Shown piece after piece: positions 1 through 33,030 of a stretch of 64,000 nt of DNA. The DNA comes from Tyzzerella sp. (GTDB lineage Bacteria; Bacillota; Clostridia; Lachnospirales; Lachnospiraceae). Within the stretch, counting starts at the first letter, position 1, and every line of letters begins with the position of its first letter. The notes beneath the pieces are model-generated. The model was given only the letters and a program-made list of their open reading frames with translations. It was not told the origin of the DNA and did not search any database. Both the position numbers and the translations under genes were made by a program. The stretch is taken from assembly GCA_017410145.1 (NCBI GenBank), contig JAFQRJ010000006.1:21062-85061 (forward strand). Direction: 5' to 3'.

Positions 1-361
1 TGCACATGGAAAAACCGGAATAGATATCAATCCGGGTGCCACCATCGGTGAATATTTCTTTATTGACCATGGTACCGGTGTTGTAATCGGTGAAACTGCT
101 ATCATTGGAAATGGTGTAAAGATTTACCAGGGTGTTACAATCGGTGCACTTTCCACAAGAAAAGGGCAGGCGTTATCCGGTATCAAACGTCATCCAACTA
201 TTGAAGATAATGTTATCATCTATGCAAATGCAACCATTTTAGGAGGCGATACGGTTGTAGGTGAAGGCGCAACCGTGGCAGGTAACACCTTTGTAACGGA
301 GTCCGTGCCTGCAGGCGCGAAGGTCAGTGCCATGCATCCGGAGTTGAATGTGAGAATTTAA
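1..361 (+). CDS. cysE: Serine O-acetyltransferase, 3' portion (truncated by window start)
   Basis: Manual translation from base 2: ...[28 protein letters not shown]...IYQGVTIGA...[21 protein letters not shown]...; TAA at 359-361. Not in ORF track. Confidence 0.9.
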
Positions 362-385
362 GGCGTGCGAAAGCACGCCTTTTTT
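361..385 (+). terminator. Rho-independent terminator of cysE
   Basis: AGGCGTGC-GAAA-GCACGCCT followed by T-run. Confidence 0.9.
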
Positions 386-437
386 GTGGGTAACTGTATC
401 TGTAAACATGTAAATATACTAGGTTTTATGGAGCGGA

Positions 438-727
438 ATTTCTGTATACAGAAAAAGTTGTTAACAATACCCGTTATCATGTAGACATACTAGTTTATAG
501 CACGTGAAATTTCTATATACAAGAAAAATATTCTCAAATACCCTTGGAGTTGTAACAAAGTGGGTATTTGAGAATATTTATTTTACATATAGAAAATCAA
601 TACGAAAAAGTAAAATAATTAAGGGTATTGCAAACAAATTTCTGCCTATATAGAAAATTTGAACAATTCTAATTGGAAATGACAAAAATTGTGGGTATAG
701 CGAAGATATTTTCTTGCATATAGAAAA
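438..727. repeat. Array of five 35-bp degenerate units GGGTAT-N20-TATAGAAAA (2 reverse, 3 forward)
   Basis: Reverse units 438-472, 509-543; forward units 562-596, 623-657, 693-727. Confidence 0.85.
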
Positions 728-824
728 ACAGGAACACGGAAAAAATCCTGTAAATATCTATAATTTACCAAAGCACATGACAGCAATTTTATGATAATAT
801 CATTTTGGCTACTGAAAAATTGTT

Positions 825-20815: not shown

Positions 20816-22903
20816 ATGAAAATTTTGGGGAGAAATGTAAGTAGAACTTGTCTTAGTATACTAATGATTATAGTATGCCTCGGGACAAGTTTACTTTTTT
20901 TAGGTATAAATGCGGATGCGAAGACAGTGATTCGGACAGGGACTGTCGAGGTAAGCAGTAGTTTGAATCTTCGAAGTGGTCCGGGCACGGAATATAGTGT
21001 CGTTGGTTATTTGAAAAATGGTGATACAGGGCAAATCATTGAGGAGAAGAAGGCTACTACCGGTAAGATATGGTACAAAATGATTGTAAATGGAAAGACT
21101 GGTTGGGCATCATCTTCTTATGTAAAGGTAACGGAAACAATCGTAGAAGAAGATAAAGACTTTGATGCATATTTAGCAGCGCAAGGATTTCCGGAAAGTT
21201 ACCGAGCACAGCTTCAGGCATTGCATGCAAAGTATCCAAATTGGAAATTTGAGGCCCAGATTACAAATCTGACTTGGGATGAAGTTATCAAAGGTGAAAG
21301 TGCCCTTGGTAAAAACTTAGTACATGATAGTGCAGATTCTTCTTGGAAATCGACACAAACCGGCGCCTATGACTGGGAGAAAAATGAATGGAAAGAATTT
21401 GATTCCGGCGGATGGGTAGCTGCATCAACTGAGATTATCCGATATTACATGGACCCAAGGAATTTTCTGGATAGTACAAATATTTTTCAATTTATTAAAC
21501 AAAGCTATAATGCTTCAGCATTAAATGCAACACAACTGGCGCAAAAAAAGGCTGACCTGACAAACATGGTTAAAGGTACATATCTTGCTGGTGGGTGCGA
21601 TAACAGTACTTACGTAGACGTAATTATGAGCGTGGCTGCAAGCACAAAAGTTTGCCCGTTTACTTTGGCTTCCATGATGATTCAGGAGCAAGGAATTAAT
21701 GGTGACGGTAGAAGTATTTCAGGTAAGGTTCCGGGATATGAAGGATATTATAACTATCTGAATATCGGAGCATACAAGACAAGCAGTTTTGCTTCTGCTG
21801 TAGAGCGTGGATTGTGGTATGCGAAAGGTGGAGACAGTGGTTCCACATCATATGGGAGACCATGGAATACAAGAACCAAAGCTATTAAAGGTGGTGCATT
21901 GTATTACGGTGAAAATTTTGTGAATGTAGGACAAGATACCTTGTATCTAAAGAAATTTAATGTACAGGGTTCCAATCTATACGGACATCAATATATGACA
22001 AATGTTGGCGGTGCGGCAAGTGAAGGAATTCACATGTCAAAAGCATATGATGAAAATGCGAGAGAGGCGGCATTGATATTCAAGATTCCGGTATACAAAA
22101 ACATGCCTGCCGCGGTGAGTAAAAAGCCATCAGGTGATGACAATCCAAACTATATGTTGAAATCATTATCAGTAAGTGGTTATAATTTGACACCAACCTT
22201 TAGTATGTACGAAACCTCCTATTCGTTGATTGTACCGAATAGCGTTACAAGCATTACAGTTAGTGCACAGGCGGCATCTTCCACAACTACAGTTTCAGGA
22301 ACAGGTGCAAGAAGTTTGAATGTAGGTACCAATGCTATTGCAATTACGACAAAAGCACAGAATGGTAGTACCAGAACCTATACCATTAGTGTTGTTCGTC
22401 AAGCTGCAAGTAACACAGGCGGCGGAAATGGTGGAACAAACAATGGAGGCAACAACGGAGGAACAACAGTTGTAACTCCAAGTGTTAGCAGTACCACCTA
22501 CAAGGTAAATAGCAATAATACGATTACCGGAATTACAAGTTTTCCAATAAAGGCATCAGATTTCACAAAGAAATTTGCTGTTGCAAATGGAAGTGTAAAG
22601 ATTACAAAATCAAATGGTACAGCAGAAACGGGTAATGTAGGAACCGGAGACCAAGTGAGAGTGTATGATTCGACAGGTGCGCATAAGTTTACTTATAACG
22701 TTGTCATTTATGGGGATACCAATGGTGATGGAAGAATAAATGCTCAGGATCTGTTGCTTATACAAAAGAATAATATTCGTGTTAGCACATTAAACGGAGT
22801 ATTTTCTTCAGCGGCAGATGTAAATAAGAATGGAAAGGTCAATGCACAAGATTTACTTTTAGTGCAGAAACACAATATCAAGATATATACCATTAAACAA
22901 TAG
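20816..22903 (+). CDS. Secreted peptidoglycan hydrolase: SH3b + GH73-like glucosaminidase + cadherin-like beta-sandwich + C-terminal dockerin
   Basis: LNLRSGPGT...WYK...GWASSSYV (SH3b); IQEQG, YYNYLNIGA, HQYMTN; two Ca-loop repeats GDTNGDGRINAQDLLLIQK and ADVNKNGKVNAQDLLLVQK. Confidence 0.85.
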   Translation: MKILGRNVSRTCLSILMIIVCLGTSLLFLGINADAKTVIRTGTVEVSSSLNLRSGPGTEYSVVGYLKNGDTGQIIEEKKATTGKIWYKMIVNGKTGWASSSYVKVTETIVEEDKDFDAYLAAQGFPESYRAQLQALHAKYPNWKFEAQITNLTWDEVIKGESALGKNLVHDSADSSWKSTQTGAYDWEKNEWKEFDSGGWVAASTEIIRYYMDPRNFLDSTNIFQFIKQSYNASALNATQLAQKKADLTNMVKGTYLAGGCDNSTYVDVIMSVAASTKVCPFTLASMMIQEQGINGDGRSISGKVPGYEGYYNYLNIGAYKTSSFASAVERGLWYAKGGDSGSTSYGRPWNTRTKAIKGGALYYGENFVNVGQDTLYLKKFNVQGSNLYGHQYMTNVGGAASEGIHMSKAYDENAREAALIFKIPVYKNMPAAVSKKPSGDDNPNYMLKSLSVSGYNLTPTFSMYETSYSLIVPNSVTSITVSAQAASSTTTVSGTGARSLNVGTNAIAITTKAQNGSTRTYTISVVRQAASNTGGGNGGTNNGGNNGGTTVVTPSVSSTTYKVNSNNTITGITSFPIKASDFTKKFAVANGSVKITKSNGTAETGNVGTGDQVRVYDSTGAHKFTYNVVIYGDTNGDGRINAQDLLLIQKNNIRVSTLNGVFSSAADVNKNGKVNAQDLLLVQKHNIKIYTIKQ

Positions 22904-22914
22904 GGGAGAATTAA

Positions 22915-24480
22915 ATGAATAATTTTAAAAAAATAGGGGGATTTTTCTTAAGTATATGTTTACTTTTCGTGCTACTTTCAGGAGAGGCGTTTGCAGCGTC
23001 AGCAAAAGTAAGTGTATCTAGTGCGAGTGGCAACGTTGGTAATACTGTTACGGTAACATGTTCAGCGACTACATCCGGGACTGCGATTGGTGGTGCAGAT
23101 ATTACATTGAAATATGATCCTTCTGCGCTGACAGTTGTAAATTGTTCAAGTGGGGCAAGTGGAAGTTCAGGAAGTGTGTACTACAGTGGATATGCTACTA
23201 GTGGCGGATTGACCAAGTTAAGTTTTACAGTGAGTTTTAAAATTTTGAAGGCAGGAACACATAGTATTAGTGTAACATCTGCAGACGTATATGATTATGA
23301 AGCAGCAAGTTCTGTTTCTACAAGTTCAAGTGGTGGTAAGATTACCGGAAAAGTTCCTACAACTAACAACAATAATAACACAAACAACAATACTAATAAT
23401 AACAAACCACAGAACAACAAAGACACGAATAACAAGTTAAGTGCTCTTCAAGTGTATCCGGGAAATTTAAGCCCGGCATTTAGCGGGGATACTACTTCTT
23501 ATACAGTAAGTGTTCCGGGAGATACAACAGAAGTGACAATTTCTGCAACTCCGGCTAGCAGTAAATCAACGGTAAGCGTTTCGGGTGGAAAAGATTTGAA
23601 ACTAGGTCCAAACGAGGCAAAAGTTATTGTTGTCTCTGAAAGTGGCTCGTCCAGAGCATACACCATTACAATCATGTGCGGAGAAGCAGAAAAGATTCAG
23701 ATTGGAAACGTCGAGCATACGATTGATGAGAATTTTAAAGACGACCAGATACCAACAGGATTTAGCAGAAAGCAAGTGACATACAACAACAGACAATATG
23801 AAGCAGTGACGAATACAAGTGGAAGTCTGGTGCTTATGAATTTAAAATCCGGTGAGAACACAAGCTTTTATATTTACAACCAGGAAGCAAAAGAATTCTA
23901 TGATTTTATACAAATTAAATTTGCAGAAGGTAAATATATTATTCCACTGCCACTTAATAAAGAGGTGGCAGAGTTTGCAGAGTATGAAACTGTAGCACTT
24001 CAGGTGCAAGGAAAGCGTGTGGATGCTTGGAAACTGGATGAAGAATTTAGTGTTGCTTATGTGATGAATCAAGATGGAACAGAAGTCTTATACAAATATG
24101 ACAGTTTAGATGGAACCTTCCAAAGATACAACGATATAAAAGTCGAAGATGTGGAACAGGCACCAGTTGAAAAAACTTGGTTCCCGAACGAGTATTATAT
24201 GTATGCAATCGTAGGGCTCGGTGCACTTTCTTTTATTCTCTTAATTGCGATGATTTACTTTATCGCAAGCAGAAAAGCAAGACATGAGGGGAGAAAGAAA
24301 AAAGCAATGAAACGCCAGGAAAAGCAGAAAGCAAAAGAAGAAAGACAACGAGAAAAAGAAGCACGTGAACTTGAAAAACATAGACAGATTTTAGAAGAAG
24401 AACGTGAAAAACAACGCCAGAAAGAAGAAAAGAAATTGGCGAAACAACGGGCTAAAGAAGAAAAGAAGAGAGAAGAATAA
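22915..24480 (+). CDS. Membrane-anchored protein: cohesin-like domain + Asn-rich linker + cadherin-like beta-sandwich + TM + charged tail
   Basis: Signal peptide (AFA); VGNTVTV...IGGADITLKYDPSALTVV...FTVSFKILKAG cohesin-like pattern; LSPAFSGDTTSYTVSV; TM near the C-terminus; E/K/R-rich tail. Confidence 0.72.
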   Translation: MNNFKKIGGFFLSICLLFVLLSGEAFAASAKVSVSSASGNVGNTVTVTCSATTSGTAIGGADITLKYDPSALTVVNCSSGASGSSGSVYYSGYATSGGLTKLSFTVSFKILKAGTHSISVTSADVYDYEAASSVSTSSSGGKITGKVPTTNNNNNTNNNTNNNKPQNNKDTNNKLSALQVYPGNLSPAFSGDTTSYTVSVPGDTTEVTISATPASSKSTVSVSGGKDLKLGPNEAKVIVVSESGSSRAYTITIMCGEAEKIQIGNVEHTIDENFKDDQIPTGFSRKQVTYNNRQYEAVTNTSGSLVLMNLKSGENTSFYIYNQEAKEFYDFIQIKFAEGKYIIPLPLNKEVAEFAEYETVALQVQGKRVDAWKLDEEFSVAYVMNQDGTEVLYKYDSLDGTFQRYNDIKVEDVEQAPVEKTWFPNEYYMYAIVGLGALSFILLIAMIYFIASRKARHEGRKKKAMKRQEKQKAKEERQREKEARELEKHRQILEEEREKQRQKEEKKLAKQRAKEEKKREE

Positions 24481-24524
24481 AAACAAGTGCGGCTCAGAAC
24501 ACATCGATGAGTCGCACTTGTTTT
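24479..24524. terminator. Bidirectional terminator
   Basis: AAAACAAGTGCGGCTCA...TGAGTCGCACTTGTTTT. Confidence 0.8.
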
Positions 24525-24551
24525 ATATTGGTCATACCAACTGATTTCAGT

Positions 24552-24854
24552 ATGGGTATATGCTGCTTTTTTTTATTTGCTATACCCTTATGTTTGCCTG
24601 ATTCCATGTGGTTTTGGGAGATTTTTTCTATATGAAAAATAAGTGTTTTGTAATACCCTGCTTTTTCACAACCTATGGGCATGGCAAGCAAGTTTTTTTG
24701 CGTATAGAAAATTCTAACCACCAAGGTACCCTTTGGGGTCTGAATTTGGGGTATAGGAAGCAAGTTATTATGTATATAGAAAAAAACACCCCGAAAGTGT
24801 TTTTGCATCCCTGCGTTTTGGGTATGGAGAGCCAATTATTATGCATATAGAAAA
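24552..24854. repeat. Second array of GGGTAT-N20-TATAGAAAA units (2 reverse, 3 forward)
   Basis: Reverse units ~24552-24587 (degenerate) and 24624-24658; forward units 24677-24711, 24749-24783, 24820-24854. Confidence 0.85.
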
Positions 24855-24895
24855 ACGCCCCCCAAGTGCTGCTCATAGCCCGAATTAAGGGTGCG

Positions 24896-25336
24896 CTATA
24901 TTCTACTTAAAAAACTATTATGATATAACCTGCTAAATGTCACATCTTCTGCAAACCAATCAGGGGCGATGAATGCCTTTGCCTCTTCTTCGGAAGCAAA
25001 TTCCACCTCTGCAAGTGTGAGAGGAGCTAAGTCTCCTTCAAAAATGTCTAATTCAATGGTATATTTTTCAAACGGAATCATGTAACGTTTTTTAGTAATG
25101 AGTCTGCCGTCTATTTTCTCTTTCAGGTGTTCATAAGCTTCTTTTGTAAGTGGAAGATTATATTCCTCGCGTATCATCATTCCTTTTGCTTTATACGTGA
25201 GTTCGTATTTGTCATTATCCTTTCTGATGCGAACCACCGGACCGGTACACAGGTAGCCTTGTTCTAAGTGGCGCACAGGGTATTTTTCTAAATCATTTGG
25301 TAATTCTTTTAATAAAAATTTGCGTTCGATTTCCAT
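24896..25336 (-). CDS. CYTH domain protein (triphosphate tunnel metalloenzyme)
   Basis: MEIERKFL (ExExK), QGYL, VRIR, LTYK, ELDIF, AEVEF. Confidence 0.92.
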   Translation of the reverse strand: MEIERKFLLKELPNDLEKYPVRHLEQGYLCTGPVVRIRKDNDKYELTYKAKGMMIREEYNLPLTKEAYEHLKEKIDGRLITKKRYMIPFEKYTIELDIFEGDLAPLTLAEVEFASEEEAKAFIAPDWFAEDVTFSRLYHNSFLSRI

Positions 25337-32427: not shown

Positions 32428-33030
32428 ATGAAGATTAAGAATGTAGAATTGGAAATTGTTTGCGGAATTACAAGTAAGTTGTCGGAGACAGACAAAGTGG
32501 AAATTGCGTTTGCAGGGAAGTCAAATGTGGGTAAATCTTCTTTGATTAATGCCTTAATGAATCGCAAGGCACTTGCAAGAACATCGGCCACTCCGGGAAA
32601 AACCCAGACCATTAATTTCTATAATGTAAATGATGTAATGTATCTGGTGGATTTGCCGGGATATGGGTATGCAAAGGTGTCTGAACAAGAAAAAATCAAA
32701 TGGGGACAGCTGATTGAACGTTATTTGAATACATCGAAGCAGTTAAAAGCTGTTTTCTTATTGATTGATATCAGGCATGACCCATCTGCAAATGATAAGA
32801 TGATGTATGAGTGGATTGTGGCGCAAGGCTATCATCCAATTATCATTGCAACAAAGCTGGATAAATTGAAACGAAGCCAAGTGGCAAAACATGTGAAAAT
32901 GATTAAGGAAGGATTAAAACTCCTTCCGGGAACAACGGTTATTCCTTTCTCGGCGGAGACAAAACAAGGCCGGGAAGAAATTTGGGAACTCATGGAAACT
33001 TACCTACAAGAAGAAACTGAGGTGGAGTAG
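32428..33030 (+). CDS. engB: Ribosome biogenesis GTPase YsxC/EngB
   Basis: GKSNVGKSS, PGKT, DLPGYGYA, TKLDK; follows lon. Confidence 0.96.
   Translation: MKIKNVELEIVCGITSKLSETDKVEIAFAGKSNVGKSSLINALMNRKALARTSATPGKTQTINFYNVNDVMYLVDLPGYGYAKVSEQEKIKWGQLIERYLNTSKQLKAVFLLIDIRHDPSANDKMMYEWIVAQGYHPIIIATKLDKLKRSQVAKHVKMIKEGLKLLPGTTVIPFSAETKQGREEIWELMETYLQEETEVE

What the first reader, a model, noticed from the sequence alone, without database searches (positions are those of the whole stretch)
438..727. Non-coding array of 35-bp bipartite units (GGGTAT-N20-TATAGAAAA) in a head-to-head layout
Seen: five units of exactly 35 bp. Forward: gggtatttgagaatatttattttacatatagaaaa (562), gggtattgcaaacaaatttctgcctatatagaaaa (623), gggtatagcgaagatattttcttgcatatagaaaa (693). 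Reverse-complement units: 438-472 and 509-543. The ends are nearly invariant and the middle is semi-conserved. The two inner units form an inverted repeat (aatattctcaaataccc / gggtatttgagaatatt) around an 18-bp core. Periods are 71, 61 and 70 bp. The sequence preceding units 1 and 2 is also similar (catgtaaatatactag / catgtagacatactag), which suggests growth by tandem duplication. It matches no element I recognise, and no cas or transposase gene is adjacent. Inference: a multi-site protein-binding platform, a non-autonomous mobile/REP-like element, or an array processed into small RNAs.
Basis: partly seen in the sequence, partly recalled or inferred. Interest (0 to 1): 0.8.

Follow-up and report, generated by a model that had tools for sequence, protein, structure and literature searches.

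The report
Repeat array partnered with a nuclease
The array is real: it is one copy of a non-coding repeat family scattered behind genes in a few gut Lachnospiraceae, whose reference copies frame the gene of an unnamed restriction-enzyme-like nuclease, a pairing that works like REP/RAYT or Ssn/NTS but uses a different enzyme.

Summary
The motif GGGTAT-N20-TATAGAAA occurs 9 times in the window (0.67 expected). All 20 clear genomic copies lie in five arrays with the same layout: minus-strand units, an 18-19 bp centre in four of the five (60 bp in the fifth), then plus-strand units about 71 bp apart.

The arrays are non-coding and match no Rfam family, phage or plasmid. None lies between diverging genes. 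Two arrays are whole insertions missing from the same site in a relative. Between species the boxes are 60/60 identical while spacers are 76% identical, so the boxes are under selection.

Two arrays on another contig are inverted copies framing a 259-aa protein with no Pfam or NCBIfam family. Its C-terminal domain folds as a PD-(D/E)xK nuclease. A relative with at least 35 units at about 20 loci has one such gene, framed the same way. Two other paralogs in this genome carry their own private repeats.

Best reading: boxes are recognition sites of a cognate nuclease that spreads or recombines the arrays. The association is shown; binding and cleavage are inferred. It is a new variant of the REP/RAYT and Ssn/NTS kind. 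This scan reported the sister array here and similar pairs on other DNA.

The parts
360..385 (+). Intrinsic terminator of the upstream acetyltransferase gene. It is not part of the repeat; the array begins right after its T-run.
   Evidence: 9-pair stem with 6 GC pairs, then a T-run; this hairpin is absent at the same site in G052.
386..437 (-). Decayed outermost module (GGGTAA...ATATAC). It is the left copy of a 71-bp tandem duplication.
   Evidence: family D1: 386-456 against 457-527, 70% identical. The call that this is a decayed unit is my reading of the sequence.
438..472 (-). Unit L2 (GGGTAT-N20-TATACAGAAAT).
   Evidence: 1 mismatch.
509..543 (-). Unit L1, the inner left arm.
   Evidence: 0 mismatches. 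pair I2.
544..561 (.). 18-bp centre between the two GGGTAT heads. It is homologous to the loop of the single hairpin at the same site in G052.
   Evidence: By my count of the printed sequences, 14 of 18 bases are identical.
562..596 (+). Unit R1, the inner right arm.
   Evidence: Three paired (compensatory) differences from the G052 hairpin arms.
623..657 (+). Unit R2.
   Evidence: 0 mismatches.
693..727 (+). Unit R3.
   Evidence: 0 mismatches.
728..754 (.). Right flank of the array, up to the point where similarity to relatives resumes (about 755-781).
   Evidence: the G052 match starts at query base 755 and the G013 match at 781.
24530..24896 (.). Sister array, a 367-bp insertion. It holds variant unit 24555-24590, minus unit 24625-24658 and plus units 24677-24710, 24749-24782 and 24820-24853. 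TATATT lies on both sides (24524-24529 and 24897-24902).
   Evidence: The site is empty in G052:C7, whose flanks are 89-91% identical.

Best explanation
Window 386-754 is one chromosomal copy of a family of composite, non-coding repeat elements. Each element is built from 34-35-bp units with two conserved boxes, GGGTAT and (C)ATATAGAAA, about 19 bp apart. Minus-strand units and plus-strand units face each other across an 18-19 bp centre. Further units are added outward by tandem duplication of a ~71-bp module.

The boxes are protein recognition sites. The most likely partner is a 259-aa protein encoded on another contig (G000:C29:23472-24248). It has an N-terminal helical hairpin with a small sheet and a C-terminal PD-(D/E)xK nuclease domain of the Vsr / I-Bth0305I type. 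Its gene is framed by two inverted copies of the same array.

I propose that the protein binds as a dimer across the inverted GGGTAT heads and nicks or cuts there. That would drive insertion, loss, inversion and unit gain of the arrays at sites just behind transcription terminators. Gene-less arrays such as this one would then be either copies moved in trans or what remains after recombination between units removes the gene.

Shown: the family, its fixed layout, selection on the boxes, whole-array presence/absence between species, the gene-repeat association in three genomes, private repeats for other paralogs, and the nuclease fold. Inferred: binding, cleavage, dimer geometry, and that the nuclease moves the arrays.
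For: (1) Layout. All 20 clear units in the 1.89-Mb assembly sit in five arrays that share the minus / centre / plus layout.

(2) Framing. Arrays A and B on C29 are inverted copies that frame a MerR-like gene and the 259-aa gene.

(3) Relatives. G042 has at least 35 units at about 20 loci and a single homolog, 69% identical. That gene is framed on both sides by complete composite elements in inverted orientation. In G007:C54 the units flank a decayed copy of the gene.

(4) Private repeats. In G000 an internally deleted paralog on C1 lies between arrays of TTACGGTG-N22-CACCGTAA. That 8-mer occurs 129 times in 16 clusters; my own composition-based estimate of the expected count is about 47. The C15 paralog has yet another repeat on both sides. 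At least 10 of 14 homolog loci carry such repeats, by script plus inspection. In the script alone, 8 of 300 random control segments scored.

(5) Selection. G000 array A against its G052 ortholog: boxes 60/60 identical, unit interiors 84%, spacers 76%.

(6) Gain and loss. Array 2 is absent from G052 and array C from G008, in both cases immediately after a terminator.

(7) Protein. The AF2 models have pLDDT 94 and 90.5. The best structural match of the C-domain is the I-Bth0305I homing endonuclease catalytic domain (Z 8.9, rmsd 3.0, 90 residues aligned), followed by Bax1, TnsA, VRR_NUC and Vsr. The C-domain matches the C-terminus of PADLOC PDC-S68 helicase-nucleases at E 2e-27. Conserved E157, D187, E202 and H203 are present in G000's gene.

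(8) Copy number. The gene is multi-copy and patchy: 28 of 47 genomes of the genus, up to 8 matches each, including partial and interrupted copies.
Against: No experiment links the protein to the boxes; the link rests on position alone.

Copies within a genome are old: spacers are only about 50-76% identical and I saw no near-identical pairs, so recent movement is not shown.

The arms of a pair are barely more alike than unrelated units (0.54 against 0.49 identity at variable positions, p 0.02), unlike REPIN hairpins.

The homologs at the dnaB locus of G008 and G019 are framed only by a terminator-like hairpin, not by arrays.

G052 has 9 units but no detected homolog. Its array contig runs off into an apparent IS gene, and the assembly is 85% complete.

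The 6-bp flanking repeat rests on one locus in AT-rich DNA.

At locus 1, G052 has a perfect 20-bp hairpin right after the stop codon, and three compensatory changes separate the two species. That argues for a hairpin or terminator role at that site.
Confidence: 0.6

Rival explanations
1. The arrays are host 3'-end elements. Their hairpins terminate transcription in both directions or protect mRNA ends, as REP/BIME elements do in E. coli. The nuclease gene merely sits in a repeat-rich spot. This does not exclude the best explanation.
For: Four of the five G000 arrays lie between converging genes, none between diverging genes, and the roughly 20 G042 loci all follow a 3' gene end. Array 1 folds into a long nested hairpin at -77.4 kcal/mol, z -7.3. 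At the same site G052 has only a perfect 20-bp stem flanked by A- and T-runs directly after the stop codon, with three compensatory changes relative to G000.
Against: In most pairs only the boxes can pair; the interiors are not complementary. The 18-19-nt loop and tandem same-strand units are not what terminators need. cysE already has its own strong terminator at 360-385. This reading does not explain why each nuclease paralog is framed by its own private repeat.
Confidence: 0.2
2. This is a self-DNA control system of the Ssn/NTS type. The nuclease cuts DNA carrying the boxes, for example incoming single strands during transformation, and the arrays mark chromosomal regions whose exchange is limited. 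Spread of the arrays is a side effect.
For: The motif-gene-motif layout is the one described for NTS-ssnA-NTS, where SsnA cuts single-stranded DNA and lowers transformation (PMC11893778). The nuclease domain is shared with a candidate defence protein, PADLOC PDC-S68, at E 2e-27.
Against: The enzyme fold is different: PD-(D/E)xK, not GIY-YIG. I did not test whether these bacteria are competent for transformation. G000 has only about 5 arrays, against hundreds of NTS copies in Neisseria.
Confidence: 0.12
3. Each unit is a promoter of an alternative sigma factor (GGGTAT as upstream element, TATAGAAA as -10), or the array is cut into small RNAs of about 70 nt.
For: The unit is bipartite with fixed spacing. 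A loose -35-like ATGACA/TTGCAA lies 16-18 bp before TATAGA in many units (my reading).
Against: Sigma-70-like sites are at chance level: 4 found against 3.6 expected. Units never occur singly in front of genes. Outward firing would give antisense RNA into converging genes. No locus lies between diverging genes. There is no Rfam match. The nuclease's own promoter region in G000 holds no unit.
Confidence: 0.05
4. It is a decayed or orphan CRISPR-like array of 35-bp repeats with 26-37-bp spacers.
For: The repeat and spacer lengths resemble those of CRISPR arrays.
Against: Repeat interiors differ between neighbouring units. Units face each other. Spacers of arrays A and B are copies of each other. 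Array 1 matches nothing in the phage and plasmid collections. I saw no cas gene among the ORFs I annotated beside the arrays.
Confidence: 0.01

Closest known systems
REP/BIME and REPIN elements with their RAYT (TnpA-REP) gene, the 'REPtron' (PMC3116915, PMC3337134, PMC3733652)
   Same: Short extragenic repeats sit behind genes, are arranged in opposed pairs and clusters, and are dispersed through the chromosome. A single cognate enzyme gene is framed by inverted copies. Different paralogs have different private repeats.
   Different: The enzyme here has a PD-(D/E)xK fold, not a Y1 HUH transposase. The unit is not a palindrome and lacks the GTAG/CGTC tag. Paired arms are complementary mainly at the boxes. 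Units are bipartite over 34 bp and the centre gap is fixed at 18-19 bp.
Ssn nucleases and their NTS/SRM motifs (Chenal et al. 2025, PMC11893778)
   Same: A small nuclease gene is flanked on both sides by its own dispersed motif, and many enzyme-motif pairs have their own specificity. There the enzyme-motif interaction is proven.
   Different: Ssn is a single-domain GIY-YIG enzyme that cuts single-stranded DNA next to a 20-50-nt hairpin. Here the enzyme has two domains, a helical hairpin plus PD-(D/E)xK, and the motif is a bipartite box pair in opposed tandem sets.
I-Bth0305I, prototype of the EDxHD homing endonucleases (PMC3239194)
   Same: It is the best structural match of the nuclease domain (Z 8.9). 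As I recall from the paper's abstract (only its opening lines were displayed), it is a multi-domain homodimer with a ~60-bp footprint centred on a pseudopalindrome. That is a plausible model for binding across the inverted heads.
   Different: I-Bth0305I sits in a phage group I intron and homes into recA. Here there is no intron or intein, no sequence-level family match, and the partner DNA is a dispersed repeat.

Membership tests
REP/REPIN-RAYT (REPtron) | The associated gene is a Y1 (HUH, IS200/IS605-like) transposase framed by the repeats. | tested here: not met
   The framed gene folds as PD-(D/E)xK. The only Y1_Tnp match in G000 is an 80-aa fragment with a stop codon on C9, where one search found no clear unit.
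REP/REPIN-RAYT (REPtron) | The unit is a 20-40-bp imperfect palindrome tagged by GTAG or CGTC at one end. | tested here: not met
   The unit consensus GGGTAT.g.a.a..A.TTtTttt.cATATAGAAAa is not a palindrome and carries no GTAG/CGTC tag.
REP/REPIN-RAYT (REPtron) | Two inverted units form a long hairpin (REPIN). | tested here: inconclusive
   Opposed pairs are the rule. Arm identity at variable positions is 0.54 against 0.49 between loci. Array 1 is an exception at 88%.
REP/REPIN-RAYT (REPtron) | Extragenic and dispersed, mostly at 3' ends of genes. | tested here: met
Ssn/SRM | Single-domain GIY-YIG nuclease. | tested here: not met
   No GIY-YIG match in Pfam or NCBIfam. The fold matches are PD-(D/E)xK enzymes.
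Ssn/SRM | The gene is flanked on both sides by its dispersed motif. | tested here: met
   G000 C29 and G042 C13.
Ssn/SRM | The enzyme cuts single-stranded DNA beside the motif. | not testable with these tools
   This needs a nuclease assay.
CRISPR array | Near-identical direct repeats, unique spacers, one direction, cas genes. | tested here: not met
   Unit interiors vary and units are opposed. Arrays A and B share spacers. Array 1 matches nothing in the phage collection.
MITE / insertion sequence | Terminal inverted repeats, target-site duplication, and a known transposase family in the full-length element. | tested here: inconclusive
   A 6-bp TATATT lies on both sides of array 2, against one TACATT in the empty G052 site; this is a single locus. 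I saw no match between the outer ends of array 2 (my reading). The framed gene matches no transposase family in Pfam or NCBIfam.
EDxHD / Vsr-like PD-(D/E)xK nucleases | Nuclease domain with the Vsr-like fold and conserved acidic and His residues. | tested here: inconclusive
   Fold match to 3r3p_B at Z 8.9 and to Vsr 1cw0 at Z 7.3. E157, D187, H192, E202 and H203 are conserved. The profile search against PDB sequences gives only E about 1, to T7 endonuclease I.
Rfam RNA families | A match at the family's gathering score. | tested here: not met
   Only a tRNA in the whole window. The sub-threshold hits in 340-860 are generic hairpin (miRNA) models far below their cut-offs.

The most novel reading that the evidence does not exclude
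This is a third, undescribed class of enzyme-repeat partnership in bacteria, after RAYT/REP and Ssn/NTS. A dimeric two-domain PD-(D/E)xK nuclease family has more than 5,600 clusters at 50% identity in public data and no Pfam or NCBIfam family. Each paralog recognises its own bipartite boxes across a fixed 18-19-bp centre, and by cutting there it seeds, expands, inverts and deletes ~70-bp-phased arrays behind terminators. That would make it a programmable family of long-site DNA-recognising nucleases and a driver of intergenic turnover in gut Lachnospiraceae.
Probability: 0.35. Interest if true: 0.8.

Novelty: new variant of a known kind. Interest (0 to 1): 0.62.

Why it matters
If the nuclease does recognise these boxes, Lachnospiraceae carry many enzyme-site pairs with long, paralog-specific DNA targets. 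That would be a natural library of sequence-specific nucleases, as Ssn proved to be. It would also explain why the DNA behind genes turns over so fast in these gut bacteria: the same intergenic site holds different repeat families in sister species. It would give a first function to a large protein family (5,645 clusters at 50% identity) that public records leave unnamed or label 'ATPase'. On the practical side, these repeats probably break metagenome assemblies, since many homologs sit alone on ~1-kb contigs.

Tried and rejected
- **Rfam.** At gathering scores the window gave only a tRNA. At E up to 5, region 340-860 gave only generic hairpin models.
- **Phage and plasmid DNA.** blastn of the array found nothing.
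- **Promoter scan.** Sigma-70-like sites were at chance level.
- **Protein family searches.** Pfam, NCBIfam and PDB sequence searches found no family. PHROGs gave one marginal 'endonuclease' hit at E 0.0095.
- **Fold search of the whole model.** The list was swamped by coiled-coil look-alikes of the N-terminal hairpin, so I modelled and searched the C-domain alone.
- **MerR-like neighbour as the box-binding partner.** Rejected as a general partner. It accompanies the nuclease only at the dnaB locus (G000, G008, G019), not in G042 or at most other copies.
- **G013 as an empty-site control for array 1.** Synteny is broken there, so it was not usable.
- **10-mer counting for further repeat families.** The output was dominated by AT-rich words.
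- **Exact 8-mer inverted-repeat detector.** It misses families with short arms, so the '10 of 14' figure combines script and inspection.

Full report
**The observation**

With up to two mismatches, GGGTAT-N20-TATAGAAA matches 9 times in the window. In 100 dinucleotide-preserving shuffles the mean was 0.67 and the maximum 4. The other four matches form a second array at 24625-24853 with the same layout.

The inner pair of array 1 is a 34-nt inverted repeat, 88% complementary, around an 18-bp centre.

The array lies between two converging genes. One is a hexapeptide acetyltransferase that ends at 361 and has its own strong terminator at 360-385. The other is a metallophosphoesterase on the minus strand that ends at 825.

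**The family in this genome**

The window is G000:C5:21062-85061, part of a 1.89-Mb, 68%-complete assembly. In that assembly every clear unit (20 of them) lies in one of five arrays:
- C5:21500-21787, the array of this finding, with 2 minus and 3 plus units;
- C5:45686-45914, with 1 minus and 3 plus units;
- C29:22469-22695, with 2 minus and 2 plus units;
- C29:24361-24589, with 2 minus and 2 plus units;
- C29:28571-28769, with 1 minus and 2 plus units.

Minus units always come first and plus units second. The gap between the GGGTAT heads is 18-19 bp in four of the five arrays and 60 bp in the fifth (C29:28571-28769). Same-strand units follow each other at about 70-72 bp.

The unit consensus is GGGTAT.g.a.a..A.TTtTttt.cATATAGAAAa. 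A variant unit that ends in TATACCC instead of TATAGAAA sits at the outer edge of several arrays, for example window 24555-24590.

**What it is not**
- It matches no Rfam family.
- Array 1 has no similar DNA in the phage or plasmid collections.
- Promoter-like sites are at chance level.
- Units never stand alone in front of a gene.
- Four of the five G000 arrays lie between converging genes and none between diverging genes. The roughly 20 loci in relative G042 all follow a 3' gene end.

Outward-firing promoters or a small-RNA array are therefore unlikely. Opposed units, variable repeat interiors and shared spacers between arrays A and B rule out a CRISPR array.

**The boxes are under selection**

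I aligned G000 array A with its ortholog in G052. The box positions are 60/60 identical, unit interiors are 64/76 (84%) identical, and spacers and flanks are 218/287 (76%) identical. At the spacer rate, 60 unchanged positions have a probability of about 7e-8 (my arithmetic).

Within G042, the two arms of a pair are hardly more alike than units from different loci: 0.54 against 0.49 identity at variable positions, permutation p 0.02. So the sequence of the boxes is what is kept, not a hairpin in general.

Array 1 is an exception. Its G052 ortholog is a single perfect 20-bp stem with a homologous 18-nt loop, and three paired changes separate the two species. At this site a hairpin role, such as termination for the converging genes, is plausible.

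**Arrays come and go as blocks**

Array 2 (window 24530-24896, 367 bp) is missing from the same site in G052:C7, where the flanks are 89-91% identical. In G000 the sequence TATATT lies on both sides of the insert, and the empty site has one TACATT.

Array C, between grcA and pflA, is missing in G008. G052, G019 and G013 carry an unrelated ~175-bp insert at that site. A GGGTAT element in G052:C25 is replaced in G000:C11 by an array of a different repeat.

In both cases with an empty site, the insert begins a few bases after a terminator's T-run.

**The partner gene**

Arrays A and B on C29 are inverted copies of each other. They frame a MerR-like gene and a 259-aa ORF. The ORF matches no Pfam or NCBIfam family and no PDB sequence. 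It nevertheless belongs to a large family:
- 3,299 clusters at 90% identity;
- 5,645 clusters at 50% identity;
- many members alone on ~1-kb contigs, and the few named ones called 'ATPase'.

The AlphaFold model (pLDDT 94) has an N-terminal helical hairpin with a small sheet and a C-terminal alpha/beta domain. Modelled alone (pLDDT 90.5), the C-domain matches only restriction-endonuclease-fold enzymes:

| Match | Z-score |
|---|---|
| I-Bth0305I homing endonuclease catalytic domain (rmsd 3.0, 90 residues) | 8.9 |
| Bax1 | 8.7 |
| TnsA | 7.8 |
| VRR_NUC | 7.7 |
| Vsr | 7.3 |

These values are; Foldseek probabilities reached 0.99. Other points on the protein:
- The C-domain aligns with the C-terminus of PADLOC candidate PDC-S68 at E 2e-27.
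- It also aligns with part of plasmid genes annotated as 'AAA ATPase' or 'RecD-like helicase', which may explain the 'ATPase' label.
- E157, D187, H192, E202 and H203 are conserved across the family and present in G000's gene.

**The association recurs**

G042 is a 'Tyzzerella sp.' MAG from roe deer. It has at least 35 units at about 20 loci and one homolog, 69% identical. That gene is framed on both sides by complete composite elements in inverted orientation, with the variant unit nearest the gene. With about one element per 77 kb, two elements within 300 bp of one gene by chance is on the order of 1e-5 (my estimate). In G007:C54 the units flank a decayed copy of the gene.

Within G000 itself:
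- An internally deleted paralog on C1 lies between two arrays of TTACGGTG-N22-CACCGTAA. That 8-mer occurs 129 times in 16 clusters, against about 47 expected from base composition (my estimate).
- The C15 paralog and its ClpP-like neighbour are framed by a third repeat.

Homologs in other genomes carry other inverted units, again with about 18-23 bp between the arms:
- GATTGGGCAAGA-N18-TCTTGCCCAATC in nine ~73-bp periods;
- TTGGACAT-N21-ATGTCCAA;
- AGGTAT...TATTGAAA and TGTATAG...TATTGAGAATA.

The more the protein differs, the more the motif differs. I did not test this formally. In all, at least 10 of 14 homolog loci have such repeats. In the script alone, 8 of 300 random control segments scored.

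The gene is patchy and multi-copy in the genus: 28 of 47 genomes, with up to 8 matches each, including partial and interrupted copies. Arrays of six or more GGGTAT units occur only in genomes with the gene, plus G052, whose array contig ends in an apparent IS gene.

The framed cassette is inverted relative to dnaB and pfl between G000 and G008, as recombination between flanking inverted repeats would produce.

**Mechanism**

The best-supported reading is that the boxes are recognition sites for the cognate nuclease. By analogy with I-Bth0305I, which as I recall from its paper is a homodimer with a ~60-bp footprint (PMC3239194; only the opening of the abstract was displayed), the protein would sit as a dimer across the inverted heads.

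Breaks made there, and their repair, would account for several features:
- whole-array gain and loss behind terminators;
- 71-bp unit duplication;
- inversion of the framed cassette;
- gene-less arrays. Because each array contains both orientations, recombination between same-direction units of the two framing arrays would delete the gene and leave one opposed array.

All of this is inference. Only the association, the selection on the boxes and the fold are shown. A host role for the hairpins (termination or mRNA stability), and an Ssn-like role in limiting uptake of box-bearing DNA, remain open and could coexist with it.

**Comparison and novelty**

The logic matches REP/RAYT (PMC3116915, PMC3337134, PMC3733652) and Ssn/NTS (PMC11893778). 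Membership fails for both on the enzyme class and on the form of the unit.

I found no paper describing this enzyme-repeat pair.

This scan has seen the same thing before. It reported the sister array in this window (e1-5450372) and nuclease-plus-private-repeat pairs in other Lachnospiraceae (e1-5235668, e1-3930837). I re-derived the claims about this genome independently. New here:
- the ortholog comparison of boxes against spacers;
- two more empty or replaced sites;
- the compensatory changes at locus 1;
- the G042 reference element;
- the two further private families in G000;
- the cassette inversion.

Exact opposed pairs occur in the 185,579-species collection only in a few Lachnospiraceae MAGs labelled Tyzzerella, Agathobacter and Lachnobacterium.

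**Verdict**

This is a real, selected, non-coding repeat array. It is a new variant of the known 'nuclease gene plus cognate dispersed repeat' kind, and its mechanism is unproven.

Noticed in passing
G000:C1:30692-31003 and 32446-32654 (L027 2690-3075 and 4405-4690): A second repeat family, TTACGGTG-N22-CACCGTAA. The 8-mer occurs 129 times in 16 clusters in this genome. Here it frames an internally deleted nuclease paralog (N- and C-terminal pieces at L027 4125-4337 and 3971-4219) and an RluD-like gene.
   Followed up: partly
G000:C15 (L026 3560-3950 and 5420-5660): A third nuclease paralog, 56% identical, and a ClpP-like gene are framed by yet another repeat with CATGCAAAAC, TAGGCCTA and CAGAAAC motifs.
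   Followed up: partly
L001 6844-8252 against L017 877-2298: The MerR-like plus nuclease cassette is inverted relative to dnaB and the pfl genes between G000 and G008. The MerR N-terminus is identical in G000, G008 and G019, while the nuclease is only about 63% identical.
   Followed up: partly
G000:C11:30572-30860 against G052:C25 (L084 1400-1700); L001 12499-12812 against G008, G052, G019 and G013: The same intergenic sites hold different repeat families, or none, in sister species. These sites look like hot spots of repeat turnover just behind terminators.
   Followed up: partly
P0003 against L001:7473-8252: The 90%-identity cluster representative has Ala at the conserved Glu202 of the WEHFG motif. 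The G000 DNA encodes Glu.
   Followed up: no
L050 3690-3860 and 4080-4200 (G042:C13): Two short tandem repeats lie next to the nuclease-framing elements, one of 31-bp period with 5 copies and one of about 21-bp period. Their meaning is unknown.
   Followed up: no
window 20816-24480: A two-gene unit with cohesin and cadherin-like domains lies just upstream of the second array. An earlier scan note (e1-5375, same window) treats it as a cohesin-dockerin pair. I only confirmed the Cohesin and Cadherin-like Pfam hits for 22915-24480.
   Followed up: no
G052:C49:1-143 (L083): In G052, where the MerR/nuclease cassette would lie, the contig ends in what looks to me like the start of an IS3-type transposase gene. 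I ran no family search on it. This may be why no nuclease homolog was found in that assembly.
   Followed up: no
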